Source of the DNA: Phycisphaerales bacterium
GTDB lineage: Bacteria > Planctomycetota > Phycisphaerae > Phycisphaerales > UBA1924
Length of the DNA: 64,000 nucleotides
Direction of reading: 5' to 3'
NCBI GenBank assembly: GCA_029260315.1
Contig: JAJDDM010000072.1
Coordinates: forward strand, 1,357-65,356
Below the pieces are notes generated by a model that was not told where the DNA came from, searched no databases, and saw only the letters and a program-made list of their open reading frames with translations. A program made the position numbers and the translations under genes. This document shows, piece after piece, positions 1 through 62,267 of the stretch. The first letter of the stretch is position 1. Every line of letters starts with the position of its first letter.

Positions 1-2368
1 TCGCCTCGATCCGCGCGATCTCCTCGGCGCTTACCGGCTTGTTGTGCGAGAAATCGAACCGCAGCCGATCCGGCGCGACCAGCGACCCCTTCTGCTCCAC
101 CCCCTCGCCCAGCACGTCGCGCAGCGCGAAGTTCATCACATGCGTCATCGTGTGGTTCGCGCGGATCGGCTCCCGCCGATCGCGATCGACATGCACCTCG
201 GCGCGATCTCCCACGCGGACGTGCCCGTCGGTCACATGCCCCACATGCAGCACATACCCGCCGATCGCGTCCGCGCGCCGGACGCGAAAACTCCCGGCGC
301 CGTCGCCCGGATCGTTGCTCTCGTGGGACACGACGAAGATCCGCCCGGTGTCGCTCTCCTGCCCGCCGCTCTCGGCGTAGAAGCATGTGTGGTCGAGGAT
401 CATCGCGATCGGATGCCCCGCGGCCCCCGTTCCCGTGTGCACCGAGTTATCCCAGTCCCGCCCGGTCCAGATCGCCCGCACCGTCGCGATCTTCGCGGTC
501 CGCTCGTACTTCGAGCTGTCGTCGGTCGGGGGGATGCCGCGCTGCCGCAGGCTCTCCACCGCCTCGGCGGTCATCGTCAGGGCTCGGTCACTCCCGGCCT
601 TGCCCCCGGCGCGGCTTCGCTCGCGCTGCTCGGCCATGCAACGCTCGAAGCCTTCAATGTCGACGGTCAAGCCACGCTCCTCGGCCATGAGTTGGGTGAG
701 GTCTGGAGGAAAGCCATAAGTGTCATAGAGTTTGAATACGTCTTCACCCAGCATCCTTGGCACAGATTCGAAGTAGTGTTCGATTAGGCGTGGCGTTACT
801 TCGGCGTAACTAAACTGCAAGAAGGGCTCATCGTGGCCTCTCTCGAAGATAGTGAAGGTTGAATGTTCATCAATGCCCATTGCGATCGGTCTTCGGTCAT
901 CCTGGTCCAAGACGCGCTCGATTTGAGCAGGCATGGTCTCGCGAGTTAGTGCCAACAAGTACTTGTTCTCGGTATCATCCTTGAGCGTGAACTGACGAAA
1001 AACGGCGTCGCCGGCATATGACGCGAAAACCCGCAGGCCCCGATCCAACGTCCTCCCAAAGCTCTCCTCCTCCTCCAGCACCACCTCGCGCACAAACTTC
1101 TCCCGCTTGCGCAGCTCCGCAAACGCCTCCCCCATCTGCTCGACAATCACCGGCACCAGCCCGGCGAGAAACCCCGTCTCCGCCCCCAGCATCTGACGCC
1201 CGTACCGCACCGCTCGGCGCAGCACTCGCCGCAGCACATACCCCCGCCCCTCATTGCTCGGCACCGCCCCATCGGCGATCGCAAACGTCAGCGTCCGCGC
1301 ATGGTCGGCGATCACCCGATACGCCGTGTCCACCTGCCCCTCGTCCTCTTCCCCAAGCTTCCCCGCGTACGCTCGCGCCCCCGTCGCCTCCTGGATCGCG
1401 TCGAAGATCGGCGTGAATAGATCCGTGTCGTAGTTCGAGAGCTTGTTCTGCAAGATGCTGGTCAGTCGCTCCAGCCCCATCCCCGTATCCACATGCCTCG
1501 CCGGCAGCGGCTTGAGCTGGGTAGATCGGCTCTCCGAGCCGATTCCCGAGGCGTCCTGGGTAGGTCGGCTCTCCGAGCCGACATCGGGGGCGACGATCTG
1601 GGTAGATCGGCTCTCCGAGCCGACATCGGGGTCGTCCGAGGTGCCTTGCGTGGGAGCTTTGCTCGTCGTCGTGTCGGCTCGGAGACCCGACCTACCCATT
1701 TGCCGATCGAACTGGATGAACACCAGATTCCAGACTTCGAGCACGTTGGGGTCGTCCTGGTTGACAAGCCCCGCCGCGTCGCGCCCGCCGATTCTGTCAT
1801 AGTGAATCTCGCTGCAAGGCCCGCACGGCCCGGTCTCGCCCATCTCCCAGAAGTTGTCCTTCATATTCCCCGCCAAGACCCGCGCCGCCGGCAGGTACTT
1901 CAACCAGATCTCCCGCGCCTCCTCATCCGCCCCCAACTCCTGCCCCGCATCGCCCTCGAAATACGTCGCGTACAGCCGATCCTCGGGGATCCCGCACTCC
2001 TCGGTCAGAAACTCCCACGCCCAGCCGATCGCCTCTTCCTTGAAGTAATCGCCGATCGACCAGTTCCCCAGCATCTCGAAGAACGTGTGGTGATAGGTGT
2101 CCTTGCCGACGTCCTCCAGATCGTTGTGCTTGCCCCCGGCACGGATGCACTTCTGGCTGTTCACCGCCCGGGCCAGTCCTTCCAGCGGCGACCCCGCCGA
2201 AACCTGCCCCAGAAACGCCGGCTTGAACTGGTTCATCCCCGCGTTGGTGAACAGCAGCGTCGGATCATCGTGCGGCACCACCGGGCTCGACGGATAGAAC
2301 CGATGCCCGTGCCTGGCGACGAAGAAGTCGATGAACCGCTTGCGGATCTCGCTGCTGGTCGGGGGCAT
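1..2368 (-). CDS. alaS: alanine--tRNA ligase (AlaRS); the 3' end runs off the left edge of the window
   Basis: Absent from the ORF track because there is no stop in the window. Manual minus-strand translation from ATG 2368-2366 gives [89 protein letters not shown] and LYDTYGFP. These are class II AlaRS signature blocks. The frame stays open to position 1. Confidence 0.93.
1519..1697. mobile_element. REP/REPIN-like array, family D: three direct and one inverted 25-nt GTAG-hairpin units, in-frame inside alaS
   Basis: Direct copies of GGGTAG(A/G)TCGGCTCTCCGAGCCGA(C/T) lie at 1519-1543, 1558-1582 and 1600-1624. The reverse complement lies at 1673-1697. Each unit has a 7-bp stem and 3-nt loop (TCGGCTC TCC GAGCCGA) preceded by GTAG. 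Confidence 0.85.
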
Positions 2369-2410
2369 GGGGGCTCCTGGAGTCATCCTCCCGGATGGTA
2401 GCGTTCTCAC

Positions 2411-3019: not shown

Positions 3020-3096
3020 GGTCGGCAGGATACCGTGCAAGTGGAAGAGTTGGCATTGTTTGCCGAGAACGGTACGGGCTGCCTGCCGGACGACCA

Positions 3097-3127
3097 ATCG
3101 CGAGCTTGCGCTCGCGGCTCCGTTTTG
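3097..3127. repeat. REP family A copy (right flank of the RayT-like gene)
   Basis: The sequence is ATCGCGAGCTTGCGCTCGCGGCTCCGTTTTG, with palindrome CGCGAGC-TTGC-GCTCGCG at 3099-3116. Confidence 0.85.
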
Positions 3128-3165
3128 GGGTGCGCTCCAATCCGACCGCCGCCGATAGCCGATAA

Positions 3166-3200
3166 CCCATCGCGAGCTTGTGCCCGCGCCTCCGCGTTCT
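3166..3200. repeat. Degenerate REP family A copy
   Basis: CCCATCGCGAGCTTGTGCCCGCGCCTCCGCGTTCT has the same head as the rlmN copy (ACCCATCGCGAGC). The stem carries a mismatch. Confidence 0.5.
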
Positions 3201-4636: not shown

Positions 4637-4978
4637 CGGGTCACCACGAGAAAACACAGAGAGCACAGAGGGCACAGAGGGCACAGAGGGCACAGAGGGC
4701 ACAGAGGGCACAGAGGGCACAGAGGGCACAGAGGGCACAGAGGGCACAGAGGGCACAGAGGGCACAGAGGGCACAGAGGAAGAATATTCACCACGGAGTT
4801 GCGCGGAGTTCAAGGTGCGGAATCGGATCGTCCTCGACACCGTTCCTTCCGACTCCGTGTCACTCCGTGAAACTCCGTGGTGAACTCCTTGCTTTTCTCT
4901 CGTGCCCTCTGCGCCCTCTTGTGGTTCATTCCTGCTCTTCGCTTTTCGCTTTTCACTTTTCGTTTTCTACCCTCCCCC
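4637..4978. repeat. Nested imperfect palindrome filling the sthA-holB spacer (repeat family G)
   Basis: TTCACCACGGAGT at 4787-4799 mirrors ACTCCGTGGTGAA at 4872-4884. The CACAGAGGG units on the left mirror CCCTCTG units at 4905-4920. Four (G/A)CTTTTC heptamers lie at 4941-4967. Confidence 0.8.
4655..4780. repeat. Tandem repeat, 14 x 9 bp (CACAGAGGG)
   Basis: Counted directly: the units start at 4655 and recur every 9 nt to 4772. The first unit is CACAGAGAG and the last is CACAGAGGA. The repeat is open in all frames (the TEGTEG, QRAQRA and PSVPSV artefact ORFs). Confidence 0.97.
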
Positions 4979-6118: not shown

Positions 6119-6216
6119 GCGAGTCTTCGAGCGCAGGCCACGCGATTGCACGCTTGACGTCGCTTCCGCTGTCGAGTCCAAAACGAATAGCCGTTCGGAG
6201 CACCGACCATGGCACC
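6104..6216. mobile_element. MITE-like element, family C, copy 1
   Basis: GGTGCCGTGGTCTAAGCGAGTCTTCGAGCGCAGGCCACGC is nearly identical to 11173-11212 and to the reverse complement of 62194-62233. The right end CCATGGCACC approximates the inverted terminus. It overlaps the last holB codons and stop. Confidence 0.7.
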
Positions 6217-11168: not shown

Positions 11169-11172
11169 AATG

Positions 11173-11265
11173 GGTGCCGTGGCCTAAGCGAGTCTTCGAG
11201 CGCAGGCCACGCCCTTGCACACTCGACGTGGCATTCGTCGCAGAGCCTCCTCATACCACGGCACC
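11173..11265. mobile_element. MITE-like element, family C, copy 2 (compact, 93 bp)
   Basis: The termini GGTGCCGTGGCCT and ATACCACGGCACC are inverted. An inner hairpin GCCACG...CGTGGC is present. It starts 4 nt after the stop of the upstream gene. Confidence 0.75.
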
Positions 11266-11287
11266 ATCACGCCGGGATCGACCAGAC

Positions 11288-31915: not shown

Positions 31916-32114
31916 CTTCGCCCGGAGGGCGCACTCGCGTTGCCAGGGACTTCAGTCCCTGGACGGCGGCATTCGCTCATTCTCGCCCGGAGGGCGGACG
32001 CGCGGCTCGAAACATGGCGACTGTCTCGTCCGCCCTCCGGGCGGCAGAGATCACTGAAGACTCCCTCCAGGGACTGAAGTCCCTGGCAACGAGCGCGCGC
32101 CCTACCGGGCGAAG
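31916..32114. repeat. Nested composite palindrome (repeat family H) between convergent genes
   Basis: Outer arms 31916-31962 and 32067-32114 are reverse complements and include CCAGGGAC-ttca-GTCCCTGG. Inner arms are CGCCCGGAGGGCGGACG at 31984-32000 and its complement at 32027-32043. Confidence 0.85.
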
Positions 32115-37453: not shown

Positions 37454-37559
37454 GAGCGGAGGGTAGGGACACGGCGATTGGCTGAGAACCATGTTCGCAA
37501 CGCTGCTCCGCAGCGGAGGACAGGCTCTTCTTCGGATCACCACTCTACGATTGGCTGGA

Positions 37560-38699
37560 ATGCGGATTCTGCTTGCTAATCCCCGGGGCTTCTGTGCGGG
37601 CGTGCAGATGGCGATCGACGTCGTCTCGCAGGTCGTCGACTTGTTCGAGGGCGAGACGATCTACGTCTACCACGAGATCGTGCATAATCGCCATGTGGTC
37701 AGACGATTTCGGGATTCGGGGGTCGTCTTCGTCGAGGACATTGGGGAGATTCCCGAGGGCTCGGTCGTCGTCTTCAGCGCCCACGGCGTGAGCCCGGCGG
37801 TGCGTGCCAAAGCCTCGGCGAGGGAGCTGCGGGCGATCGACGCGACCTGCCCTTTGGTCACGAAGGTCCACGCCGAGGCGATTCGCTACGCCAAGCGAGG
37901 CGATCAGATTCTGCTCGTCGGGCACGCCGAGCATCAGGAAGTGGTCGGCACCCGCGGCGAGGCGCCGGACGCGATCCAGATCGTCGAGTCGCCCGAGGGC
38001 ATCCCCAATCTCACGATCCGCGACCCCGAGAAGCTCGTGTATCTCACCCAGACGACCCTCAGCACCGACGACGCGGCGGTCATCATCGACGCGTTGCGCG
38101 AAGCATTCCCGAATATTAAGAGTCCTCCGAGCGAGGATATCTGCTATGCGACGACGAACCGCCAGCACGCGGTGCGGCGGCTCGCGCCCGAGGCAGACCT
38201 GACGCTGGTGGTAGGGTCGAAGAACTCGTCGAACTCGGTGCGGCTGACGGAGATCAGTGAGAATGTCGGGACGCCCGCGCGACTCATCGACGACGCCTCA
38301 GACTTGGATTGGAACTGGTTTGAGGATGTGTCCCGTGCCACCGACCGTGGCTCTGCACGGTTAGTGTCGGATGTCAAGAAACATGCAGATAAAGCACCAA
38401 CCGCTCAAAGCAGCGGTCGGTGGCACGGGATGACGGTGCTCGTGACCGCCGGCGCCAGCGCGCCCGAAGACCTGGTCGCGGGCGTCTGTCGGGCGCTGCT
38501 GGAACGCCTCGGCGGCACCATCGAGCAACGAGAGGTCTTCAGCGAGGACGTCGAGTTCAATCTGCCCGCGGCGTTGCGCAAGGAGATGGGCCGGCGGGGG
38601 TTGACGCCCGAGCCGGCCCGGATCGGCACGCCGAGGATCACGCGCGAGCTGTACGGCGGCGTGCCGCTGACGGTGAGCTGTCGAGCGGGACCGGAATAG
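37560..38699 (+). CDS. ispH: 4-hydroxy-3-methylbut-2-enyl diphosphate reductase
   Basis: MRILLANPRGFCAGV, SAHGVSP, DATCPLVTKVH, LLVGHAEHQEV, VGSKNSSNS and VTAGASAPE are present. It contains a 34-codon insertion (see the mobile element at 38329-38432). Confidence 0.92.
   Translation: MRILLANPRGFCAGVQMAIDVVSQVVDLFEGETIYVYHEIVHNRHVVRRFRDSGVVFVEDIGEIPEGSVVVFSAHGVSPAVRAKASARELRAIDATCPLVTKVHAEAIRYAKRGDQILLVGHAEHQEVVGTRGEAPDAIQIVESPEGIPNLTIRDPEKLVYLTQTTLSTDDAAVIIDALREAFPNIKSPPSEDICYATTNRQHAVRRLAPEADLTLVVGSKNSSNSVRLTEISENVGTPARLIDDASDLDWNWFEDVSRATDRGSARLVSDVKKHADKAPTAQSSGRWHGMTVLVTAGASAPEDLVAGVCRALLERLGGTIEQREVFSEDVEFNLPAALRKEMGRRGLTPEPARIGTPRITRELYGGVPLTVSCRAGPE
38329..38432. mobile_element. MITE-like element (family E) inserted in-frame in ispH: 100 bp with perfect 17-bp terminal inverted repeats, flanked by a TG/TG direct duplication
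   Basis: TCCCGTGCCACCGACCG at 38331-38347 is the exact reverse complement of 38414-38430. TG lies at 38329-38330 and at 38431-38432. The centre is AT-richer. Confidence 0.85.
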
Positions 38700-38817
38700 A
38701 ACCGAACGGGCTCGTTGTTCGTTCTGGGCCACACGTCGACGATGCGAGTCTTGAACTGAGCGACGGGTGTGCGCGGTTCAACCTCATTGGGACAAGCTCC
38801 CAGGAGAGGAGCTTGTC

Positions 38818-39603
38818 ATGATGCCTATGCGGCGAAACTGGCGGGGCCCGCGAGCCGGAGCGTTGGCGTTCACGACGATCGTTGGACTCTGTCTGGCCGT
38901 GGGCGGCTGTTCGTCCCCGTCGAGGTCGGGCGGGGGGCCCGCGCAGTCGGTCAATGAGATGCACCTGCTCGGCTCGGGGGTCCACCGGGTCGACAGCGCC
39001 CCCGACGACTGTCCCGTGTGCGCTGTGTACGAGCGCAACCACGGGAGCGTCGTGCGGGTGCGTGTGCCCGGCGGCGTCGGGGCGGGTGTCGTGGTCTCCG
39101 CTTCGGGGGACATCATCACCAACGCGCATGTGGTCGGTGAGAATAAGCTCATCGTCATCGAGACCTATCACGGGACGATTGTCCGCGGGCATGTCGAGCG
39201 GGTCTGGAAAGAGGCCGATCTCGCGATCGTGACCTCCGACTCAGGCGACGTGCATTGGTTGCCCATGGCGTTTGGGCCCGCGGCGTTCCCGCGGGTGGGG
39301 ACCACGACCTACGCCATCGGGCATCCCGTGGGGCTGGGGTGGACCGTGACCCAGGGGATTATTTCGGGCCGGCGAAGAGCCGGCGAGGTCGGCCCTCTCG
39401 GGATGATCCAGACAGACGCCGCGGTCTCGCCCGGGAACTCAGGCGGACCGCTCCTTGACGAGCAGAGCCGTTGGGTCGGCGTCGTCTCGTCGAAGCTCGT
39501 TGGGCCGGGCCTGGAGAACGTCTCGTTCGCCGTGCCGATCGTGGAGGTTCGCCGGTTCTACGAGGAATCGACGGCGAGCCCGGTTACTGGCGGGGTCAAC
39601 TAG
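38818..39603 (+). CDS. trypsin-like serine peptidase, lipoprotein
   Basis: ATG 38818 follows GGAGAGGA. Lipobox LAVGGCSS. ITNAHVV (His), DLAIV (Asp) and SPGNSGGPLL (Ser) are present. Confidence 0.85.
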   Translation: MMPMRRNWRGPRAGALAFTTIVGLCLAVGGCSSPSRSGGGPAQSVNEMHLLGSGVHRVDSAPDDCPVCAVYERNHGSVVRVRVPGGVGAGVVVSASGDIITNAHVVGENKLIVIETYHGTIVRGHVERVWKEADLAIVTSDSGDVHWLPMAFGPAAFPRVGTTTYAIGHPVGLGWTVTQGIISGRRRAGEVGPLGMIQTDAAVSPGNSGGPLLDEQSRWVGVVSSKLVGPGLENVSFAVPIVEVRRFYEESTASPVTGGVN

Positions 39604-39698
39604 CCGCGCGCAAGCAACTGCCGGCGGCTGGTGCGGGGCGCCATGATCGACCCTCGCTCGCACTACGATGGTCCGCCAACCCGTCGCAGTGCCATCGA

Positions 39699-41045
39699 AT
39701 GAACCACCCCGCCAGCCACATCTTCGCTTTCACGCCGGATTCGCTCGTTGAATGGTGCGGGGATCGCGGCATGGCGGCGTACCGCGCCCGCCAAATCCTC
39801 GGGTGGGTCTATCAGCGCGGCGTGATCGATCCGGACGCGATGTCCAACCTCGCCAAGCGGGACCGTGAAGTGCTCGCCAACGAGATGACGTTCATTTCCG
39901 GCGACATCCTGAGCCATCAGGCGGCGACCGACGGGACGCGCAAGATGCTCGTGGAATGGAGAGACGAGTCAGACCCACGGAGCCGCGAGCGCAAGCTCGC
40001 GATGGGTCATCCAATCGCCGGCTCGCTTCCGATTCTGCAAGGCTCCTCCGACGGAGGCGATCCAACGCGCCAGACCGAGTGCGTGATGATCCCCGCCGAG
40101 CCGCACGGGCGGGACGCCCGTGCCACCGGGGCGAAAGAAACTCGCGCGGACGAATCGCGCATCCGTCGCACCGCCTGCATCTCCAGCCAGGTCGGCTGCC
40201 CCGTCGGCTGCAAGTTCTGTGCATCCGGCCTCGGCGGGCTCGATGGGAACCTCTCCGCAGGTCGCATCGTCGAGCAGGTCTGGCTGCTGGACCAACTCGT
40301 GAAGGGAAATCTGGTTGAGGGTAGATCGACTCTCCGAGCCGATGCGAGGATTGAGGGTAGATCGGCTCTCCGAGCCGATGCGATGGATGAGCCAGATCAG
40401 AGAGATTCGACAGCAACCCAAGACCAATCGGCTCGGAGAGCCGATCTACCCAGGATCACCAACATCGTCTTCATGGGCATGGGCGAGCCCCTGGCCAACT
40501 TCCAGAGCGTCGTCCACGCGGTCCGCACGATCGCGGCGGATTGGGGCATGGGCATCGGTGCCCGCCGCATCACCATCTCGACGGTGGGTTTGCCCAAGGC
40601 GATCGAAAAACTCGCCGAGCAACTCGAGCTGCCGGTGACGCTGGCGCTGAGCCTTCACGCGCCCAACGACGAGCTTCGTCGGGAGCTGATTCCGTGGGCG
40701 GAGTACACGACGATCGATGAGCTGTTGCGGGCCTGCCGGGCGTGGTTCGACAAGGCCGGGCGGGAGATCACGCTGGAGTACATTCTTCTTGGCGGCGTGA
40801 ACGACCAGGCCGAGCACGCGGGGCAGTTGGCGGGCGTCGCGAAAAGCCTGCGGGCGAACGTCAACCTGATCCGGTACAACGAGGTGAGTGGGTTGCCGTA
40901 TGCGCGGCCGACCCACGCGGATGTGCGCCGGTTCCAGGAGATCCTGCGCGAGCGGGGGGTGAACGCGCACATCCGGACGAGCCGGGGACGGGATATCGCC
41001 GCGGCGTGCGGGCAGTTGCGGCATGAGACCGCAGGGGCGAGATAG
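39699..41045 (+). CDS. rlmN: 23S rRNA (adenine2503-C2)-methyltransferase, radical SAM, 448 aa (about 100 aa longer than usual)
   Basis: Internal ATG 39699 of ORF 39471..41045. YRARQILGWVY, SSQVGCPVGCKFCASG (CxxxCxxC), NIVFMGMGEPL, ISTVG, LALSLHAP, EYILLGGVND, NLIRYN and CGQL are present. Confidence 0.92.
   Translation: MNHPASHIFAFTPDSLVEWCGDRGMAAYRARQILGWVYQRGVIDPDAMSNLAKRDREVLANEMTFISGDILSHQAATDGTRKMLVEWRDESDPRSRERKLAMGHPIAGSLPILQGSSDGGDPTRQTECVMIPAEPHGRDARATGAKETRADESRIRRTACISSQVGCPVGCKFCASGLGGLDGNLSAGRIVEQVWLLDQLVKGNLVEGRSTLRADARIEGRSALRADAMDEPDQRDSTATQDQSARRADLPRITNIVFMGMGEPLANFQSVVHAVRTIAADWGMGIGARRITISTVGLPKAIEKLAEQLELPVTLALSLHAPNDELRRELIPWAEYTTIDELLRACRAWFDKAGREITLEYILLGGVNDQAEHAGQLAGVAKSLRANVNLIRYNEVSGLPYARPTHADVRRFQEILRERGVNAHIRTSRGRDIAAACGQLRHETAGAR
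39969..40073. repeat. In-frame insertion 1 in rlmN, containing a REP family A copy
   Basis: ACGGAGCCGCGAGCGCAAGCTCGCGATGGGT, with the palindrome at 39984-40001, matches the RayT-flanking repeats. It encodes SDPRSRERKLAMGHPIAGSLPILQGSSDGGDPTRQ. Confidence 0.8.
40101..40163. repeat. In-frame insertion 2 in rlmN, containing a family B hairpin
   Basis: CACGGGCG-gga-CGCCCGTG at 40104-40122 is followed by CCACC, as in 54338-54361. It encodes PHGRDARATGAKETRADESRI. Confidence 0.75.
40319..40451. mobile_element. In-frame insertion 3 in rlmN: REP/REPIN-like family D (two direct and one inverted unit)
   Basis: GGGTAGATCG(A/G)CTCTCCGAGCCGAT lies at 40319-40343 and 40355-40379. The reverse complement lies at 40427-40451. 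Confidence 0.88.
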
Positions 41046-41237: not shown

Positions 41238-44200
41238 GTGCATCGTGGGCTTGACCAACTCGCCTCGGCCATCGACCGCTGCATGACTGCCGACCAGATT
41301 CGGCTGCGTGGCCGGCTGCGGTCCCTGCGCGCCCGGGCCCGCCAGAAGCTGCCCATCGACAAGGGCCTCGCCGAGATCGGCGAGGTCATGGACGCCTCGA
41401 TCGCCCGCCGGGAGCGCCGCGAGCGGATGCTCCCGACCGTTCGCTATCCGCAGGACCTGCCGATCAGCGAGCGGCGCGAGGAGATCGCCGAAGCGATCCG
41501 TGACCACCAGGTCGTCGTGGTCGCCGGCGAGACCGGCTCGGGCAAATCGACCCAGCTTCCCAAAATCTGCATGGAACTCGGGCGCGGCGTCGCAGGGCTC
41601 ATCGCTCACACCCAGCCCCGCCGGATCGCCGCACGAAGCATCGCGGCGAGGCTGGGCGAGGAGCTGCGCCTGGGCATCGGGCGCGGCGTGGGCTACAAGG
41701 TCCGCTTCAGCGACAAGACCAGCGACCACGATTTCATCCGCGTGCTGACCGACGGCATGCTGCTCGCCGAGACCCAGGGCGATCGCGACCTGACGCGCTA
41801 CGACACGATCATCATCGACGAGGCCCACGAGCGGAGCCTCAACATCGACTTCCTGCTCGGCTACCTCAAGCACCTGCTCGAACGGCGTCCCGAGCTCAAG
41901 GTCATCGTCACCAGCGCGACCATCGACACCAAGCGGTTCAGCGAGCATTTCTCGAACGCCCCGATCATCGAGGTCTCGGGCCGGATGTATCCGGTGGAAA
42001 CCCGCTATCGCCCGCCGAGCGAGGACTTCGACGAGCGCGAGCGGATGACCAAGGCGATCCTGCACGCGGTCGACGAGTTCGCGGAGCTCGGCGAGGGCGA
42101 CGTGCTGGTGTTCCTGCCGGGCGAGCGGGAGATCCGCGAGGCGGCGAACGCGCTCTCCAGGCACCATCCGCCCAACACCGAGATCCTGCCGCTGTACGCG
42201 CGCCTGAGCGTCGAGGAGCAGCAGCGGGTCTTCGCGCCGCATCGGGGGCGACGGATCGTGATCGCGACCAACGTCGCCGAGACGAGCCTGACGGTGCCGG
42301 GGATCCGGTTCGTTGTTGATTCGGGGACGGCGCGGATCAGCCGCTACAGCCATCGGACGAAAGTCCAGCGTCTGGAGATCGAGCCGATCAGCCGGGCGAG
42401 CGCGAACCAGCGCAGCGGGCGGTGCGGGCGCATCGCCCCCGGCACCTGCATCCGCCTGTATGACAAAGACGAGTTCGAGAGTCGCCAGGAGTACACTCAG
42501 CCGGAAATCCTGCGATCAAACCTCGCGGGCGTGATCCTGCAGATGAAGTCGCTCAAGCTCGGCAGAGTCGAGAAGTTCCCGTTCGTGGAGCCTCCGGACC
42601 CGAAGATGATCCGCGAGGGCTATCGCACGCTGCACGAGCTGGGGGCGGTGGATATCGAGGGCGAGCTGACCGAGATCGGCAGGCAGCTCTCGCGTCTGCC
42701 GATCGACCCGCGCATCGGGCGGATGATCCTTGGCTCGGGCGATGAGGACTGCGTGATGGAGGTGCTGGTCATCGCCAGTGCGCTCTCGATCCAGGACCCG
42801 CGCGATCGCCCGGCGGACAAGCGAGACCAGGCCGATGCTGCCCACGAACCATTCGTCGACGACGACTCGGACTTTCTCACCTACATGCATCTGTGGGAGG
42901 TCTTCCACGAGCGCAAGAAGCACCTGTCGCACCGCAAGCTCGCGGGCTGGGCCCGGACGCACTTTCTCTCGCACGCGCGCCTGCGCGAGTGGGAGGACGT
43001 CCATCGCCAGTTGCGGGAGATCGCCGGGGAGCTGGGCTTGCACGCCGAGCGCAACGCGGCCGAGCCCGAGGCGATCCACCGCGCGTTGCTGGCGGGGCTC
43101 ATCTCCAACGTCGGCAGAGTCGACGAGGGATACGAGTACCAGGGCACGCACGGGTCGCGGTTCCACCTGTTCCCGGGTTCGACGCTCTTTGAGGAAAAGC
43201 CCCAGTGGGTCATGGCCGCGGAGCTGGTGCGGACGACGAGGCTGTACGCGCGAACGTGCGCGAAGATCCGTCCCAAGTGGATCGAGCGGTATGCGGGCGA
43301 TCTGGTGACCAAGACCCACGGCCCACCGCGATGGGACAGCCGGCGGGCGCGGGTCGTCGCCGACGAGCGCGTGAGCCTCTACGGGCTGGAGGTCGTGCCC
43401 AAACGCGAGGTCCACTTCGGGCCGATCAACCCGGAGATCGCCCGCGAGGTCTTCATTCACAACGCGCTGGTCGAGAGCGATCTGCGGACGCGGGCCCCGT
43501 TCATGCGCCACAACAAGCGACTGATCGAGCAGATCTCGCGTCTGGAGGATCGCCTGCGCCGGCGGGACCTGCTCGCCGAGCGCACGCAGCGGTTCAAGTT
43601 CTTTGATCGGATCATCCCCGAGGACGTCTTCACGGGTGGCGAGTTCGAGCGCTGGCGGCGGATCGCCGAGAAGAAGGATCCCGAGCTGCTGTTTCTCAGC
43701 GAGGACGACGTGCTCGCGGCGACGCCCAGCGGTGACGAGCTCCGCCGGTTCCCCGAAAAAATAAGCATCAACGGATCGACGCTGCCCGTGCGGTACCGCT
43801 TCGAGCCCAACGCGGGCGACGACGGCGTGACGGTGACCGTGCCCGCCGACGCGTTCACGTCGCTGGAGCCGAAAATCTCCGACTGGTCGATCCCAGGCCT
43901 CGTCCGGGAGAAAGTGATCGACCTGATCCGCACACTGCCCAAGGAGTACCGCAAGCAGATCGGCCCGGCGCCTGAGTTCGTCGACGCGTTCCTCGCCGGC
44001 GAACCTCGCCGGGATCTGCCCATCATCGAATCGCTGACCTCGTTCATCCTCAAGCAGACCGGCACGCGTGTGCCGGAGGGCGTGTGGATGCCGGTGGGGG
44101 TCGCCGAGCATCTGCGGATCAACTATCGCGTGGTCGATGACGCGGGGAGCGTGCTGGCGATCAGCCGCGACCCCGGCGAGATCCGGCGGGCCATCCGCAA

Positions 44201-45119
44201 GCACCGCGGCACGCGCCCCGGCGATCTCTACGACGAGCGGTTCGACCGCGAGGACCTCCAGGCATGGGATTTCGGCGAGCTACCCGTCTCGATTGAGGTA
44301 GATCGCGGCGGCATGGCGACGATCGCGCATCCCGCCCTGCTCGCTCGGGGCGGACACGTCGGTCTCGGGCTCGTCGAAGACGCGATCGACGCGCAGCGCC
44401 GTCATCGGGAAGGCCTGGTCGGGTTGCTTCGGATCGTGGCGGGCCAGGATCTGGAGAAGCTCACCCGCAAGCTCCCCGATCTCGATGAGCTGGGGGTGCT
44501 GTATGCGCCCTTGGGCGAGGCGAGCGAGATGCGTGACGATGCGCTCCGCCTGCTCATTGAGCACGCGGCGCTGGAGTCCGGCAAGACGCCGCGCGATGGC
44601 GAGGCCTTCGCGGCCTGCGTCGAGTCGCTTTGGGCGAACTTCAGCGAGGCCCGTTCGCGGGTGCTGCCGGTGCTCCGCACGATCCTGGTGCGCCGCCAGG
44701 AGGTCGCGCTGGAGTTGGAGCGCGATCGCCCGGGCGCCTGGGAGACGCCCATGCGCGATCTGCGGGCCCAGTTCGCGGCGTTCGCCGGACCTCGCTTCGT
44801 TCGGGGGCGATCGTTGGACACCCTGCGACAGTTCCCGCGTTACCTCGCGGGCATGTCGGCGCGGCTCACCAGGCTCGCCCGCGGCGGGTTCGAGCGCGAC
44901 CGCCAGGCCATGGAGGAGCTGTCCGAAGTCTTGCGCGAGTACGCGGCACTGCGTAAGTGCGACGACGCGACGCCGGCGTTTGCCCGGTCGTTGGGCGAGC
45001 TGCGGTGGCGCGTCGAGGAACTGCGTGTCGCTCTCTTTGCACAAGAGCTGGGCACCCGCGAGCCGGTGTCCGCCAAGCGCGTGCTCCGCGCGATCGAGCG
45101 GGCGCGTTCGAAGGAATGA
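41238..45119 (+). CDS. hrpA: ATP-dependent RNA helicase HrpA (DEAH box), 1293 aa
   Basis: GETGSGKSTQLPK, TQPRRIAARS, DEAHERSL, SATID, TNVAETSLTVPG and QRSGRCGR are present. It has the HrpA-typical length and C-terminal region. GTG start. Confidence 0.93.
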   Translation: MHRGLDQLASAIDRCMTADQIRLRGRLRSLRARARQKLPIDKGLAEIGEVMDASIARRERRERMLPTVRYPQDLPISERREEIAEAIRDHQVVVVAGETGSGKSTQLPKICMELGRGVAGLIAHTQPRRIAARSIAARLGEELRLGIGRGVGYKVRFSDKTSDHDFIRVLTDGMLLAETQGDRDLTRYDTIIIDEAHERSLNIDFLLGYLKHLLERRPELKVIVTSATIDTKRFSEHFSNAPIIEVSGRMYPVETRYRPPSEDFDERERMTKAILHAVDEFAELGEGDVLVFLPGEREIREAANALSRHHPPNTEILPLYARLSVEEQQRVFAPHRGRRIVIATNVAETSLTVPGIRFVVDSGTARISRYSHRTKVQRLEIEPISRASANQRSGRCGRIAPGTCIRLYDKDEFESRQEYTQPEILRSNLAGVILQMKSLKLGRVEKFPFVEPPDPKMIREGYRTLHELGAVDIEGELTEIGRQLSRLPIDPRIGRMILGSGDEDCVMEVLVIASALSIQDPRDRPADKRDQADAAHEPFVDDDSDFLTYMHLWEVFHERKKHLSHRKLAGWARTHFLSHARLREWEDVHRQLREIAGELGLHAERNAAEPEAIHRALLAGLISNVGRVDEGYEYQGTHGSRFHLFPGSTLFEEKPQWVMAAELVRTTRLYARTCAKIRPKWIERYAGDLVTKTHGPPRWDSRRARVVADERVSLYGLEVVPKREVHFGPINPEIAREVFIHNALVESDLRTRAPFMRHNKRLIEQISRLEDRLRRRDLLAERTQRFKFFDRIIPEDVFTGGEFERWRRIAEKKDPELLFLSEDDVLAATPSGDELRRFPEKISINGSTLPVRYRFEPNAGDDGVTVTVPADAFTSLEPKISDWSIPGLVREKVIDLIRTLPKEYRKQIGPAPEFVDAFLAGEPRRDLPIIESLTSFILKQTGTRVPEGVWMPVGVAEHLRINYRVVDDAGSVLAISRDPGEIRRAIRKHRGTRPGDLYDERFDREDLQAWDFGELPVSIEVDRGGMATIAHPALLARGGHVGLGLVEDAIDAQRRHREGLVGLLRIVAGQDLEKLTRKLPDLDELGVLYAPLGEASEMRDDALRLLIEHAALESGKTPRDGEAFAACVESLWANFSEARSRVLPVLRTILVRRQEVALELERDRPGAWETPMRDLRAQFAAFAGPRFVRGRSLDTLRQFPRYLAGMSARLTRLARGGFERDRQAMEELSEVLREYAALRKCDDATPAFARSLGELRWRVEELRVALFAQELGTREPVSAKRVLRAIERARSKE

Positions 45120-52865: not shown

Positions 52866-53444
52866 ATGAGCCGAGCGGTGCCAGCCAGCCAAGCCATGTC
52901 CTCGAAGGATCGTGGCGAGCCGGTGTTGCCGCGCGTCGCCGCCGGCGAGCGGGCCGCCATGCGCGAGTGCATGGAGCGATACAGCGGGCTCGTCTGGTCT
53001 CTCGCCCGCCGCCAACTGGCCTCGCCATCCGAAGCCGAGGACGCGGTGCAGGACATCTTTCTCGACGTCTGGAAGAGCGCCGCCCGCTTCGACGGCGCGA
53101 TCGCCTCCGAGGTCACCTTCATCGCCATGATCGCGCGGCGAAGACTCATCGACCGCCGCAGAAGAGTCGCCGGATCCAAGGAGAAGACGGTCCTCGAAGA
53201 CACCGCGCCACCCGCGGCGAGCCAGTCCAATGCCGACAACGCCGACGATGTCTCCTCGGCCGTCAGCGCGTTCGCCAAGCTCAGCGACGATCAGCAGCGG
53301 GTGCTGCGCCTGTCCATCCAGCAGGGCCTCAGCCACGAGAGGATCGCCGGCGTCACGGGCATGCCCTTGGGCACCGTCAAGACCCACGCCCGCCGCGGCC
53401 TGATCAAGCTGCGCGAGCTGGTCGCTTCCGGAGGTGACTCGTGA
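52866..53444 (+). CDS. ECF-type RNA polymerase sigma-70 factor
   Basis: This is the 3' third of ORF 51714..53444. Region 2 contains DAVQDIFLDVWKSAARF. Region 4 contains LSDDQQRVLRLSIQQGLSHERIAGVTGMPLGTVKTHARRGL. The start is ATG 52866 or 52896. Confidence 0.85.
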   Translation: MSRAVPASQAMSSKDRGEPVLPRVAAGERAAMRECMERYSGLVWSLARRQLASPSEAEDAVQDIFLDVWKSAARFDGAIASEVTFIAMIARRRLIDRRRRVAGSKEKTVLEDTAPPAASQSNADNADDVSSAVSAFAKLSDDQQRVLRLSIQQGLSHERIAGVTGMPLGTVKTHARRGLIKLRELVASGGDS

Positions 53445-54271
53445 GCCCCCTGAACGATCAGAACCGAGACGGGTCGAACCCCGACTGGCTCGATCTCGCC
53501 TGCGACGCCGCGACGGGCGACCTCGCCACCGCGGATCTGGCGCTCTGCGAGGCTTCGCGCCACGACCACGCGGCGGAGTTCGACGAGTTCGATCGCATCG
53601 CGGCGGCCCTCGCAGTCGGGCTCACGCCCATCGAGCAGGCGCCCGGCGACGTCCGGGATCGACTGATGCGCACGCTCCCGGCCATCGAGGCGGAGCCGAT
53701 CGAGTCGCGCCCACTGAGAGTGTCCCCACCGGCGAGTTCGGCGCCGAAAGCCGCGAGTCTCTGGCGGAGCCGCGCGATCGCCGGCTGGTCGATCGCTGCT
53801 CTGCTGGCCCTAGTCGCCGGCGTGATCCTGATCGTCCGGGCGACACCCCCGCAAGCACCCTCGCCCGCCGACGCCCGCCGCCAGCTCATCGCCCGCGGCG
53901 CAACACCGATCGCCTGGGGAGAGTGGTCCGATCCATCCGTCCAGGCCGTCGTGCAGGGCGTGCGCGGCGACGTGGTCTGGGACGACCAGCGCCAGGAGGG
54001 CTACATGCGCTTCGTCGGCCTGCCCACCAACGATCCGAGCGAGGCCCAATACCAGCTTTGGATTCTCGACGGTCGATACGAAGATCCGCTCTCCCAACGC
54101 GTCAGCGGCGGGGTCTTCGACATCCCGCCCGGCGCCGAGGAATGGGTCGTCCCGATCCGCCAAGGGATGCCCATCGAAGACGCCGTGGGCTTCGCGATCA
54201 CCGTCGAACGCCCCGGCGGGGTCTGGGTCTCAGACATGTCCCAGCGTGTGGCCATCGCGCTTAAGGGCTAG
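53441..54271 (+). CDS. anti-sigma factor (RskA-like)
   Basis: The GTG start overlaps the sigma stop (GTGA). A single central TM segment (WSIAALLALVAGVILIV). The C-terminal domain contains YQLWILDG...GFAITVERPGG, typical of the anti-sigma-K RskA family. Confidence 0.8.
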   Translation: MSPLNDQNRDGSNPDWLDLACDAATGDLATADLALCEASRHDHAAEFDEFDRIAAALAVGLTPIEQAPGDVRDRLMRTLPAIEAEPIESRPLRVSPPASSAPKAASLWRSRAIAGWSIAALLALVAGVILIVRATPPQAPSPADARRQLIARGATPIAWGEWSDPSVQAVVQGVRGDVVWDDQRQEGYMRFVGLPTNDPSEAQYQLWILDGRYEDPLSQRVSGGVFDIPPGAEEWVVPIRQGMPIEDAVGFAITVERPGGVWVSDMSQRVAIALKG

Positions 54272-54392
54272 GTCCTGTTTGACGGATCGGTGGAACGGGC
54301 GTCTCGCCCGTTCGTATCGTGGATTATCTCCAACACGCACGGGCGAGACGCCCGTGCCACCGCTGTCTTGTGATCCGTCAAACAGAACCTAG
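54268..54392. mobile_element. 125-bp palindromic element (family B core) between convergent genes
   Basis: The arms are CTAGGTCCTGTTTGACGGATC...GGTGGAACGGGCGTCTCGCCCGT and the reverse complement. CTAG lies at both ends. The element overlaps both stop codons. Confidence 0.8.
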
Positions 54393-54992
54393 AGCCGCAT
54401 CGCGATTCGCGCCCGCCTCGCTATCGTCCATCGGCCGCAGATAGGGCGTCAGGATCTCGGGCACGCGTCGCAGCCCCCGCCGCCTCGCCTTGTCCACGGC
54501 ATACCGCATCGAGTCGTGCATGCGCTTCCGCACGCGGTCGGTGACGTTGAACTCCAGCCGCTCCATCGTGTCGATCGCGAACCGCCAGGCGTGGTACTCC
54601 TCGACGCACCGCAGGCGATGGGTGTCGAAGCCGATCGCATGGTGCCCGATCTCGTGCAGGAAGATCGCGCACGACATCGGTCCCTTCGGGCGCGGCGCCT
54701 CGATCAGCCGGCTGACGCTGCCGTCCCGATAGAGCACCTGCCACGCGACGCCGGACATGCTGGATCGCCACTTGCGGACTCGCACGCCGTGCGTTCGCAG
54801 CATGTCCCGCGTGAGCTGGTCATACCGCTCGCTCATCGCCGGCTTCGCTGCGGGCGCAGGAACACTTGGGCAGGCGGGCGGCGCCGGAAGCACCTCGCCG
54901 ACGCCGACCGATGCATCGTCGCGTCCGGAACGCGGTCGTCGAGGAACGATCCGAGGCTTTGTCGGCTTGAGAATGTCCCACAGCGTCAGCAC
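54378..54992 (-). CDS. hypothetical protein with a HExxH zinc-metallopeptidase-like motif
   Basis: 204 aa. FLHEIGHHAIGF is the only recognisable motif. It lies 16 nt downstream of fmt on the same strand. Confidence 0.6.
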   Translation of the reverse strand: MLTLWDILKPTKPRIVPRRPRSGRDDASVGVGEVLPAPPACPSVPAPAAKPAMSERYDQLTRDMLRTHGVRVRKWRSSMSGVAWQVLYRDGSVSRLIEAPRPKGPMSCAIFLHEIGHHAIGFDTHRLRCVEEYHAWRFAIDTMERLEFNVTDRVRKRMHDSMRYAVDKARRRGLRRVPEILTPYLRPMDDSEAGANRDAALGSV

Positions 54993-62058: not shown

Positions 62059-62090
62059 GGCAAGAGCCCGGAGTCGCGTGCCGATCCGGT

Positions 62091-62233
62091 GGTGCCGTGG
62101 TCTGAGGAGGCTTTGCGACAAATGGCCACGCGCACGCCCCCGAAGACGACAATCCGTCGCTCGCGCCAAGACTTGACAGCGGTTGGCAACTCGGCGTGGC
62201 CTTCGCTCGAAGACTCGCTCAGACCACGGCACC
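62091..62233. mobile_element. MITE-like element, family C, copy 3 (143 bp, inverted relative to copies 1 and 2)
   Basis: The ends are GGTGCCGTGGTCTGAGGAGGCTTTGCGAC and GGCGTGGCCTTCGCTCGAAGACTCGCTCAGACCACGGCACC. The ends match the reverse complements of the copy 2 ends. Confidence 0.8.
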
Positions 62234-62267
62234 CCTCGGCGAACGCTACGCGCCCGCTGAATTTGCG

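What the first reader, a model, noticed from the sequence alone, without database searches (positions are those of the whole stretch)
40101..40163. rlmN insertion 2: family B hairpin just upstream of the radical-SAM cysteine motif
Canonical RlmN reads IPE-(D)DR-ATLCVSSQVGC. Here IPAE and RRTACISSQVGCPVGCKFC are separated by 21 extra codons (PHGRDARATGAKETRADESRI). Their DNA starts with CACGGGCG-gga-CGCCCGTG plus CCACC. This is the hairpin and head found twice in the intergenic element at 54268-54392. The insertion lies about 4-10 residues upstream of the CxxxCxxC [4Fe-4S] ligands.
Basis: partly seen in the sequence, partly recalled or inferred. Interest (0 to 1): 0.7.

Follow-up and report, generated by a model that had tools for sequence, protein, structure and literature searches.

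The report
Mobile hairpin repeat inside rlmN gene
A short mobile palindromic DNA repeat (a REP element) sits in-frame in a floppy surface loop of the ribosome-methylating enzyme RlmN of a Phycisphaerales bacterium; this kind of "decorated" gene, with this same repeat, was already described in 2013, so it is a good but fairly ordinary example.

Summary
rlmN (39699..41045, +) has 21 extra in-frame codons at 40101-40163. Their first 27 nt (40102-40128) match an intergenic hairpin at 54336-54362 at 26 of 27 positions (0.03 expected by chance).

Read on the minus strand, the unit is GGTGG-CACGGGCG-TCC-CGCCCGTG. That is a GTGG-headed REP (repetitive extragenic palindrome). The same 24-mer occurs in at least 120 loci from Planctomycetota, Verrucomicrobiota, Acidobacteriota, Sumerlaeota and others.

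Di Nocera et al. 2013 (PMC3733652) list in-frame Opitutus terrae "GTAG-19" REPs encoding HGRDARAT, the peptide found here. The kind of feature is therefore known.

The insert lies in the turn between two beta-strands, before strand beta1 of the radical-SAM core. This loop is 3-42 aa long in 117 Phycisphaerales relatives and is modelled with low confidence. All catalytic cysteines are intact, so the gene is probably functional.

New here:
- The same loop carries REP variants, intact or decayed, in about 16 scattered relatives and in one distant RlmN.
- All three extra segments of this rlmN hold hairpin repeats.

Mobilisation by a HuH tyrosine transposase is inferred, not shown. The last 35 nt of the insert are unexplained.

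Verdict: new member of a known kind, modest interest.

The parts
39699..41045 (+). rlmN coding sequence (448 aa with Met). It encodes the dual-specificity radical-SAM RNA methyltransferase and carries three extra in-frame segments.
   Evidence: The ORF is. TIGR00048 scores 333.6 bits against a cutoff of 290. PDB RlmN hits reach E = 7e-67. The AF2 model matches E. coli RlmN with TM 0.81-0.86 normalised to the target.
40101..40163 (+). Extra segment 2: 21 in-frame codons (PHGRDARATGAKETRADESRI) in the turn between strand QTECVMIP and strand RRTACIS (beta1).
   Evidence: Sequence is. It is absent from the PDB alignments. This loop is 3-42 aa in 117 relatives. pLDDT is below 50 at query residues 135-144, flanked by strands E124-131 and E156-161.
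40102..40128 (-). REP unit of family B. On the minus strand it reads cGGTGG-CACGGGCG-TCC-CGCCCGTG-cg: a GTGG head directly abutting an 8-9 bp stem with a 3-nt loop. It encodes HGRDARAT.
   Evidence: It matches 54336-54362 at 26 of 27 positions (D16), with 0.03 matches expected by chance. The canonical GT[AG]G-plus-stem scan finds it. As single-stranded DNA the hairpin folds at -12.8 kcal/mol, z = -3.0. The same 24-mer occurs in at least 120 loci in other genomes. The same peptide is listed for O. terrae GTAG-19 REPs.
40129..40163 (+). Remainder of the insert (GAKETRADESRI). It has a weak 5-bp GCGCG/CGCGC hairpin and its origin is unresolved. It may be a decayed older REP.
   Evidence: Local alignment to REP variants is not significant (best p = 0.057-0.066). 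There is peptide-level resemblance (RADESR) to xGSESRAT and RGTESRAT at the same place in relatives.
40176..40220 (+). Catalytic cysteines just downstream: the Cys equivalent to E. coli C118 (40176-40178) and the CxxxCxxC [4Fe-4S] ligands (40197-40199, 40209-40211, 40218-40220). All are intact.
   Evidence: These columns are invariant in alignment A1. Coordinates were read.
39977..40012 (+). Extra segment 1 of rlmN: hairpin repeat of family A (ACGGAGCCGCGAGCGCAAGCTCGCGA), in-frame.
   Evidence: (D12, I6, I10, I20): copies at 2414, 3089 (reverse complement), 3161 (reverse complement), 41061 and 41157 (reverse complement). pLDDT is below 50 at residues 100-116.
40315..40453 (+). Extra segment 3 of rlmN: two direct copies and one inverted copy of a GTAG-headed REP of family C (GTAGATCGGCTCTCCGAGCCGAT), in-frame. 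They encode EGRSxLRADA twice and SARRADLP.
   Evidence: (D6, D7, I14, I19, I25). pLDDT is below 50 at residues 208-245.
54268..54392 (.). Intergenic palindromic element holding two family-B REPs in inverted orientation (54290-54312 on the plus strand, 54338-54360 on the minus strand) inside outer inverted arms. It lies between the 3' ends of two convergent ORFs.
   Evidence: (I9, I18). The flanking ORFs are 53441..54271 (+) and 54378..54992 (-).

Best explanation
The segment is an in-frame copy of a REP, a short mobile palindromic repeat with a GTGG head. It belongs to the family Di Nocera et al. 2013 called GTAG-19 in Opitutus terrae.

The REP landed in, or was copied into, a structurally permissive loop of RlmN and is now translated as part of the protein (HGRDARAT...).

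Proposed steps:
1. REP units of this family spread within genomes as single-stranded hairpins. By analogy with E. coli and Pseudomonas REP/RAYT systems, they are presumably mobilised by a HuH tyrosine (Y1, IS200-like) transposase. This step is inferred.
2. Copies that hit coding DNA are normally lost. They survive only where the length is a multiple of three, the frame has no stop codon and the protein tolerates the extra residues. This is inferred from the pattern of survivors.
3. The loop before beta1 of the radical-SAM core is such a place. It varies from 3 to 42 aa in the lineage and is modelled as disordered. It sits at the N-terminal end of beta1, whereas the cluster-binding loop follows the C-terminal end. 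The variability and disorder are shown; the distance from the active site is inferred from fold topology.
4. Trapped copies then decay or partly duplicate in place. This explains the degenerate hairpins in relatives and perhaps the unexplained 35-nt tail here. Decay is shown in relatives; for the tail it is only suggested.

The enzyme is most likely still active. The hairpin probably has no dedicated function in rlmN.
For: Repeat identity:
- 26 of 27 nt match the intergenic copy, with a chance expectation of 0.03.
- The GTGG head abuts a perfect 8-9 bp stem with a 3-nt loop. The window holds 8 such units against 1.6 expected.

Family:
- The same 24-mer occurs in at least 120 loci across several phyla. 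Flanks are not conserved, the loop is biased (GGA 56, AGA 37 of 118), inverted partners are frequent, and many variants have covarying stems.
- PMC3733652 describes GTAG/GTGG-headed REPs and lists about 70 in-frame O. terrae REPs, including GTAG-19 units encoding HGRDARAT, GRDARAT and GTGVPPV.

Insertion rather than ancestral sequence:
- The nearest relatives differ. P0002 has no hairpin. P0001 has a decayed different variant seven codons further on.
- REP-type peptides at this loop occur in 16 of 117 relatives, scattered among REP-less sisters.
- A distant RlmN (L152, 33% identity, GC 0.47) has REP-like hairpins in the same loop in the other orientation and frame.

Tolerance:
- pLDDT is below 50 in all three extra segments, while the core superposes on E. 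coli RlmN.
- All catalytic Cys residues and 150 or more invariant columns are intact.
- All three extra segments are multiples of three and free of stop codons.

Machinery:
- A Y1_Tnp (PF01797) gene at 2486-3019 (30.2 bits, cutoff 23) is flanked by family-A hairpins, the family found in rlmN segment 1.
Against: - No near-identical genome with an empty site was found, so the insertion event, its exact borders and any target duplication are not demonstrated.
- No transposase flanked by family-B REPs was found in the window or in the 840 kb of REP-bearing loci. The Y1 gene in the window goes with family A, not family B.
- All eight forward-oriented copies seen at this loop in the Phycisphaerales set (the window and seven relatives) use the same frame (xGxxxRAT), and four start exactly three codons after 'IP'. 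In O. terrae, REPs use all frames. This fits shared descent, targeting or frame-specific selection better than fully random independent hits.
- The last 35 nt of the insert are unexplained.
- Translation and enzyme activity were not tested.
- A second rlmN copy in the genome cannot be excluded.
Confidence: 0.72

Rival explanations
1. There was one ancient insertion in the ancestor of this Phycisphaerales clade. It has been inherited vertically, and the hairpin has been kept by selection because it does something in rlmN. Possible roles are an mRNA structure that slows the ribosome before the Fe-S-binding motif, an mRNA stability element, or a DNA site bound by a host protein.
For: - The hairpin plus CCAC head recurs at the same loop, in the same orientation and the same reading frame, in the window and seven relatives. 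Stem sequences differ but remain complementary: CACGGGCG, CACGGCTC, CACCGGCT, CGCGGC.
- Several copies share the following Gly codon (RATG).
- REP-like units are far denser in rlmN than in the flanks of the same contigs: 7 in about 12.5 kb against 3 in about 100 kb. The sample is biased.
Against: - Most relatives (about 100 of 117) have no such motif, and some have a 3-aa loop.
- Several copies are visibly decaying (L127, L208, L209).
- The stem variants are the same ones seen in extragenic REPs elsewhere. For example, the L122 variant occurs in an intergenic REP doublet in L042. This fits replacement from the REP pool rather than compensatory drift.
- One relative (L123) and a distant RlmN (L152) carry the units in the opposite orientation.
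- The 81-nt mRNA region folds no better than shuffles (z = -0.53).
- The window and L121 share an identical 19-nt hairpin although the proteins are only about 71% identical. That is not expected from neutral vertical descent.
Confidence: 0.1
2. The sequence was not transposed. It was generated locally by replication slippage or template switching at a GC-rich palindrome, or pasted in by gene conversion or repair templated on another REP copy.
For: Partial tandem re-iterations of the 3' arm plus head occur both inside rlmN of relatives (L122, L123, L209, L210) and in intergenic copies (L042, L078, L114, L117). These show that slippage-type processes act on these units.
Against: Slippage can expand a unit but does not explain the first arrival of a 27-nt sequence that matches a pan-genomic repeat at 26 of 27 positions. 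Related REP families are documented substrates of Y1 transposases (background knowledge; reviewed in PMC3733652 and PMC6006769).
Confidence: 0.12
3. The gene is a decaying pseudogene riddled with repeats, or the inserts are assembly artefacts.
For: Three separate repeat-bearing segments in one 1.3-kb gene is unusual.
Against: - The ORF is intact, and all three segments are in-frame and free of stop codons.
- All invariant residues of the family are present, including five catalytic Cys residues.
- The gene scores above the TIGR00048 equivalog cutoff.
- Independent assemblies of relatives show inserts at the same three loops.
Confidence: 0.04

Closest known systems
Intragenic GTAG/GTGG-headed REPs of Opitutus terrae, family 'GTAG-19' (Di Nocera, De Gregorio & Rocco 2013, BMC Genomics 14:522, PMC3733652)
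   Same: - Same architecture: a GT[AG]G head abutting a 6-9 bp stem with a short loop.
- Same encoded peptides: HGRDARAT forward and GTGVPPV reverse.
- Same behaviour: single units or dimers inserted in-frame in housekeeping genes of a PVC-superphylum bacterium.
- Hits to the exact 24-mer include Opitutus and Opitutaceae genomes.
   Different: - The host here is a Phycisphaerales planctomycete.
- The target, rlmN, is not in their list.
- The same three loops of one gene are occupied by three different repeat families.
- The same loop is occupied in many relatives.
- The O. terrae DNA consensus was not available to me, so identity with GTAG-19 rests on the encoded peptides.
REP/REPIN-RAYT systems of Escherichia and Pseudomonas (Nunvar 2010; Bertels & Rainey 2011, PMC3116915; Ton-Hoang 2012; Quentin 2018, PMC6006769)
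   Same: - A short palindrome with a GTAG or GTGG tetranucleotide 0-2 nt 5' of the stem.
- Inverted doublets (the intergenic copy at 54288-54362 is one).
- The typical location between convergent genes.
- A Y1 HuH transposase-like gene flanked by hairpin repeats is present in the window.
   Different: - Those REPs are almost all extragenic and mostly lineage-specific, whereas this 24-mer is nearly identical across several phyla.
- The Y1 gene seen here is flanked by family A (CGGA foot, reminiscent of Quentin's 'class 3'), not by family B.
- No cognate RAYT for family B was identified.
Rickettsia palindromic elements (RPE; Ogata et al. 2000, 2002)
   Same: Palindromic mobile repeats inserted in-frame in conserved protein-coding genes, at surface positions, without destroying function. 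This rests on background knowledge. RPE-4 and RPE-6 are equated with CGTC REPs in PMC3733652.
   Different: Classical RPE-1 is 100-150 bp and restricted to Rickettsia, and the RPEs that PMC3733652 equates with REPs (RPE-4, RPE-6) carry a CGTC tag. The unit here is 24-27 nt and has a GTGG tag.
Translational-bypass inserts ('byps' of Magnusiomyces mitochondria; T4 gene 60)
   Same: Short GC-rich hairpin-forming mobile inserts inside coding sequence (background knowledge).
   Different: Those inserts interrupt the frame and are skipped by the ribosome. Here every insert is a multiple of three and free of stop codons, so no bypass is needed. I considered this analogy and rejected it.

Membership tests
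REP (repetitive extragenic palindrome), GTAG/GTGG super-family | Short (20-40 nt) palindrome able to form a stem-loop, with a 6-13 bp stem | tested here: met
   The unit has an 8-9 bp perfect stem and a 3-nt loop within 23-27 nt. As single-stranded DNA it folds at -12.8 kcal/mol, z = -3.0.
REP (repetitive extragenic palindrome), GTAG/GTGG super-family | Conserved GT[AG]G tetranucleotide 0-2 nt 5' of the stem | tested here: met
   GTGG directly abuts the stem on the minus strand (40126 downward). The head is conserved in the copies recovered from other genomes, although it was part of the search pattern. GTGG heads are accepted in the family according to PMC3733652 and PMC6006769.
REP (repetitive extragenic palindrome), GTAG/GTGG super-family | Many dispersed copies in one genome | tested here: inconclusive
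   The 64-kb window has 3 family-B units and 2 B-type half sites. At least 120 loci are found in other genomes, several with multiple contigs per MAG. The whole genome of this organism is not available.
REP (repetitive extragenic palindrome), GTAG/GTGG super-family | Frequent inverted doublets (REPIN/BIME-like) | tested here: met
   The intergenic copy is a doublet (54288-54324 / 54326-54362, I9). Many copies in other genomes have an inverted partner 5-10 nt away. The rlmN copy itself is a singlet.
REP (repetitive extragenic palindrome), GTAG/GTGG super-family | Cognate RAYT (Y1 HuH transposase) gene flanked by the same REPs | tested here: not met
   None was found for family B in the window or in the fetched loci. 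That search used only a tblastn with the window's own Y1 protein, so a divergent class-2 RAYT would have been missed. A Y1_Tnp gene at 2486-3019 is flanked by family A instead. A single-copy gene elsewhere in the genome cannot be excluded. PMC3733652 notes there is no strict correlation between REPs and transposase genes.
REP (repetitive extragenic palindrome), GTAG/GTGG super-family | Extragenic location | tested here: not met
   This copy is inside a CDS. Intragenic copies are a documented minority of the family (PMC3733652, Additional file 3).
RlmN (TIGR00048; dual-specificity radical-SAM RNA methyltransferase) | Score above the equivalog cutoff, the CxxxCxxC cluster motif, and the two mechanistic Cys residues (E. 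coli C118 and C355) | tested here: met
   The protein scores 333.6 bits against a cutoff of 290. C159, C166, C170, C173 and C436 (numbering of the 447-aa query) are invariant columns. The fold matches 5hr7, 3rf9 and 3rfa. Enzyme activity was not tested.
Rickettsia palindromic elements (RPE-1 type) | A palindromic element of 100-150 bp belonging to the Rickettsia RPE sequence families | tested here: not met
   The unit is 24-27 nt with a GTGG tag, and the host is a planctomycete. The resemblance is in behaviour only.

The most novel reading that the evidence does not exclude
rlmN may be a lineage-wide trap or preferred landing site for REP hairpins. Three loops of one housekeeping gene have been colonised by at least three repeat families. 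The loop before the radical-SAM motif has been re-occupied many times in Phycisphaerales, and at least once in a distant bacterium. Within Phycisphaerales, nearly always the same orientation and reading frame are used. This would imply one of two things: sequence- or structure-targeted REP integration, or selection for a structured element or peptide at this position of RlmN. Alongside this, a 24-nt REP kept nearly identical across six or more phyla would imply a conserved, possibly horizontally spreading, recognition machinery.
Probability: 0.13. Interest if true: 0.55.

Novelty: new member of a known kind. Interest (0 to 1): 0.3.

Why it matters
The finding documents that REP-type selfish hairpins write themselves into essential-pathway enzymes in Planctomycetota, a few residues from a radical-SAM active-site motif, without breaking the gene.

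Practical consequences:
- Odd low-complexity peptides such as [16 protein letters not shown] and ATERRSDEG in PVC and Acidobacteria proteomes are repeat-derived loop decorations. They are not domains and should be masked in homology searches and structure prediction.

Evolutionary interest:
- The rlmN loops give a natural series of fresh, duplicated and decayed REP copies at one orthologous site.
- That series could be used to time REP turnover and to test whether integration is targeted.

It does not reveal a new kind of element or mechanism.

Tried and rejected
- **Rfam.** There was no family match for the hairpin or the intergenic element.
- **Literal sequence search of the literature.** The 19-mers do not appear. 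Hits to the short 9-11-mers are unrelated primers.
- **Metagenome scan with the RlmN alignment.** It was of little use for close relatives but gave an unbiased control set and the L152 case.
- **Is the 35-nt tail a second, decayed REP?** The alignments are not significant (p 0.06 to 0.67), so this is left open.
- **Does the mRNA region fold unusually well?** It does not (z = -0.53). Only the 33-nt hairpin as single-stranded DNA stands out.
- **Homologues of the window's Y1 transposase next to family-B REPs in 840 kb of other genomes.** None were found.
- **Source genome.** The best database relative of the RlmN protein is 72% identical, so the source genome is not in the protein collection. 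A second rlmN copy could not be checked.
- **Translational bypass, intein or intron-like removal.** I rejected these because all inserts are in-frame and free of stop codons.
- **Chance or low-complexity origin.** I rejected this.
Full report
**1. The observation**

The window is GC-rich (about 0.66). By the names attached to its closest RlmN homologues, it comes from a Phycisphaerales planctomycete.

rlmN runs from ATG 39699 to the stop codon at 41043-41045 on the plus strand.
- It scores 333.6 bits on the RlmN equivalog TIGR00048, against a cutoff of 290.
- It aligns to solved RlmN and Cfr structures in three blocks, which leaves unmatched extra segments between the blocks.

The segment in question, 40101-40163, is exactly 21 in-frame codons, PHGRDARATGAKETRADESRI.

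It begins with CACGGGCG-gga-CGCCCGTG followed by CCACC.
- That hairpin pattern occurs twice in the window, at 40104 and 54338. The chance expectation is 0.03, and no shuffle out of 100 reaches two matches.
- The shared stretch is 27 nt at 96% identity (D16).

- Only the first 27 nt are shared with the intergenic element.
- The insert ends 12 residues before the first cluster cysteine, and 5 before the Cys equivalent to E. coli C118.
- Against its own lineage the excess is about 12-18 codons, because the loop there is already typically 5-11 aa.

**2. What the repeat is**

On the minus strand the unit reads GGTGG-CACGGGCG-TCC-CGCCCGTG. This is a GTGG tetranucleotide directly abutting a perfect 8-9 bp stem with a 3-nt loop.

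A scan for this architecture (GT[AG]G, a stem of at least 7 bp, a loop of 3-7 nt) gave the following.
- It finds 8 units in the window, against 1.6 in Markov-1 random sequences generated from the window's base transitions.
- Three of the eight lie in rlmN.
- Two form the inverted doublet in the intergenic element 54268-54392.
- That element sits between the 3' ends of two convergent ORFs, which is the classical REP location.

- Loci came from Planctomycetota, Verrucomicrobiota (Opitutus, Ereboglobus, Akkermansia), Acidobacteriota, Sumerlaeota, Hydrogenedentota and others.
- Their flanks share nothing.
- The loop is biased: GGA in 56 and AGA in 37 of 118 copies.
- Many copies have an inverted partner a few bases away.
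- The loci contain dozens of variants with covarying stems.

Rfam has nothing for this sequence.

The literature does. Di Nocera et al. 2013 (PMC3733652) define GTAG-tagged REP families in which the tag can be GTGG.
- They report that the largest number of intragenic GTAG REPs is in Opitutus terrae.
- Their Additional file 3 lists O. terrae GTAG-19 units encoding HGRHARAT, GRDARAT and GTGVPPVMADQPHGRDARAT inside housekeeping genes.
- HGRDARAT is the translation of the forward strand of the unit here. GTGVPPV is the translation of its reverse strand.

**3. Is it an insertion, and is the gene alive?**

In 117 Phycisphaerales relatives the loop between ...ECVMIP and RRTAC... varies from 3 to 42 residues.

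The two closest relatives (72% identity in the search; 77-80% over aligned columns) do not have the unit.
- P0002 has nine ordinary residues and no hairpin.
- P0001 has a decayed, different variant (CACGCCTCggaGAGCCGTGCCAAC) seven codons further along.

The AlphaFold model built on the family alignment shows the following.
- The segment lies in the turn between strands 124-131 and 156-161.
- pLDDT is below 50 there, as it is for the other two extra segments.
- The rest of the model superposes on E. coli RlmN with TM 0.81-0.86 relative to the target.

The insert precedes beta1, whereas the cluster-binding loop follows beta1. By fold topology the insert is therefore at the opposite end of the strand from the active site. 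This is an inference, because I did not measure distances.

All catalytic cysteines and the family's invariant columns are intact. All three extra segments are multiples of three and free of stop codons. I conclude that the gene is under selection and the insert is translated, although neither point was tested directly.

**4. Context: a repeat-decorated gene in a repeat-rich genome**

All three extra segments of this rlmN contain repeats that also occur elsewhere in the window.
- Segment 1 holds family A, at 39977-40012.
- Segment 2 holds family B.
- Segment 3 holds three copies of a GTAG-headed family C, within 40315-40453.

Family A also flanks, on both sides, a 177-aa gene at 2486-3019 on the minus strand. 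That gene hits Pfam Y1_Tnp, the IS200-like HuH tyrosine transposase family, at 30.2 bits against a cutoff of 23.
- Its motifs, and the CGGA foot of the hairpins, resemble the "class 3" proteins that Quentin et al. 2018 found mainly in Planctomycetes and Acidobacteria.
- This is the REPtron layout expected of a mobilising enzyme, but for family A and not for family B.

The neighbouring ispH also carries an in-frame 100-nt palindrome with B-type heads, at 38331-38430.

**5. The same loop in relatives**

I fetched DNA for ten relatives. It shows a hairpin plus a CCAC head at this loop in most of those whose peptide looked REP-like.

| Locus | Unit at the loop |
|---|---|
| L121 | CACGGGCGggaCGCCCGTG-CCGCC, the identical hairpin |
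| L122 | CACGGCTCggaGAGCCGTG-CCACT |
| L210 | CACCGGCTggaAGCCGGTG-CCACG |
| L124 | CGCGGC...GCCGCG-CCACC |
| L127, L208, L209 | decayed copies |
| L123 | two units in the opposite orientation, plus a forward unit with partial re-iterations |

On a neighbour-joining tree, the 16 relatives with REP-type peptides fall in eight or more places among REP-less sisters.

In an unbiased set of 80 mostly distant RlmN loci, one (L152, 33% identity, GC 0.47) has REP-like hairpins in this same loop, in a different orientation and frame.

The L122 stem variant is also found as an ordinary intergenic REP in another Phycisphaeraceae genome.

The simplest reading is repeated colonisation of a permissive loop, with slow decay and slippage afterwards.

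Two things sit uneasily with pure independence.
- All eight forward-oriented copies in the Phycisphaerales set (the window and seven relatives) use the same frame, whereas O. terrae uses all frames.
- Four of them start exactly three codons after "IP".

Shared descent of some copies, REP-next-to-REP targeting, or frame-specific tolerance could each explain this. I could not separate these possibilities.

**6. Mechanism and rivals**

The best-supported explanation (confidence about 0.72) has four parts.
- A REP unit spread as a single-stranded hairpin, presumably by a Y1/RAYT-type transposase. This is inferred by analogy.
- It entered rlmN.
- It survived because the loop tolerates it and the frame is open.
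- It is now a translated, near-neutral decoration.

The rivals are as follows.
- **An anciently inserted hairpin kept for a function in rlmN mRNA or DNA (0.10).**
  - For it: the recurrence, orientation and frame at this loop.
  - Against it: absence in about 85% of relatives, visible decay, opposite-orientation cases, and an mRNA fold no better than shuffles (z = -0.53).
- **Local generation by slippage or gene conversion rather than transposition (0.12).** Slippage clearly acts on these units, but it does not explain first arrival.
- **Pseudogene or assembly artefact (0.04).** The intact frame, the conserved residues and independent assemblies contradict this.

**7. Novelty and score**

The element class, the exact repeat family and its in-frame occurrence in housekeeping genes of a PVC bacterium are all published. 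This is a new member of a known kind.

What I did not find described:
- rlmN as a target, with the insert next to the radical-SAM motif;
- three repeat families in three loops of one gene;
- recurrent occupancy of one orthologous loop across a lineage;
- the breadth of phyla sharing a nearly identical 24-mer.

These points are worth a note but do not change the understanding of REPs. Interest is 0.3.

The most novel reading not excluded is targeted integration or selection at this RlmN loop, together with a conserved cross-phylum recognition machinery. I give it about 0.13 probability.

Noticed in passing
window 2486-3019 (-), with hairpins at 2414-2451, 3089-3125 and 3161-3197: A 177-aa gene hits Pfam Y1_Tnp (IS200-like HuH tyrosine transposase) at 30.2 bits against a cutoff of 23. 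It is flanked on both sides by family-A hairpins (aCGGAgcCGCGAGCgcaaGCTCGCGa), which is a REPtron-like layout. Its motifs (HVH, WA, YVGERQ) and the CGGA foot resemble the 'class 3' TnpA-Y1 of Quentin et al. 2018. Family A is also the repeat in rlmN extra segment 1 and in the rlmN-hrpA spacer (41061, 41157).
   Followed up: partly
window 38331-38430, inside ispH/lytB (37491..38699, +): The neighbouring housekeeping gene ispH (PF02401, 287 bits) carries an in-frame 100-nt palindrome. Its arms are TCCCGTGCCACCGACCGTGG... and ...CGGTCGGTGGCACGGGA. It encodes about 33 extra residues just before the conserved MTVLVTAGASAPEDLV. The arms end in family-B-type half sites and heads.
   Followed up: partly
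window 39977-40012 and 40315-40453: The other two extra segments of rlmN are also repeat-derived. Segment 1 holds a family-A hairpin. Segment 3 holds two direct copies and one inverted copy of a GTAG-headed REP (GTAGATCGGCTCTCCGAGCCGAT), encoding EGRSxLRADA twice and SARRADLP.
   Followed up: partly
window 1515-1640: Three tandemly spaced GTAG-headed family-C REPs lie at the 5' end of a 302-aa ORF (1493..2401, +) that has no Pfam hit. In that ORF they read GRSALRAD three times. It is unclear whether this is coding sequence or an upstream REP cluster.
   Followed up: partly
L152:500-640 (metagenome contig Ga0182017_10104520): A distant RlmN (33% identity, GC 0.47) has a roughly 40-aa insert in the same loop before beta1. 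It contains GACAGGCAgggacGTCTGTCCCACC and two reverse-oriented GGTGGCACAGGCctccGTGCCTGTG-type units. This is an independent REP colonisation of the same site in another lineage.
   Followed up: partly
L114, L117, L042, L078; L122, L123, L209, L210 rlmN site 2: Family-B REPs are often followed by tandem re-iterations of only the 3' arm plus head (for example GCGCCCGTGCCAC repeated two or three times). This occurs both in intergenic DNA and inside rlmN, and suggests slippage or nested partial copying.
   Followed up: no
window 4655-4790: A perfect 9-nt tandem repeat, CACAGAGGG, of roughly 12-15 units (D1) lies just downstream of the pyridine-nucleotide disulphide oxidoreductase gene, which ends at 4636.
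   Followed up: no
window 6104-6168, 11172-11266, 62090-62234: Another dispersed repeat family of about 65-100 nt (GGTGCCGTGGyCTAAGCGAGTCTTCGAGCGCAGGCCACGC...) is present at 88-95% identity, in both orientations.
   Followed up: no
window 31921-32108: A 188-nt palindromic element has 46-nt arms that are 87% complementary. The arms contain the hairpin CCAGGGACTtcaGTCCCTGG.
   Followed up: no
relatives' loci L121, L123, L124, L125, L127 compared with window 37491-41045: The gene order ispH (LYTB) upstream of rlmN is conserved in the lineage. In the window a trypsin-like protease gene (38767..39603) lies between them, and an HrpA-type helicase gene (41238..45119) follows rlmN.
   Followed up: partly
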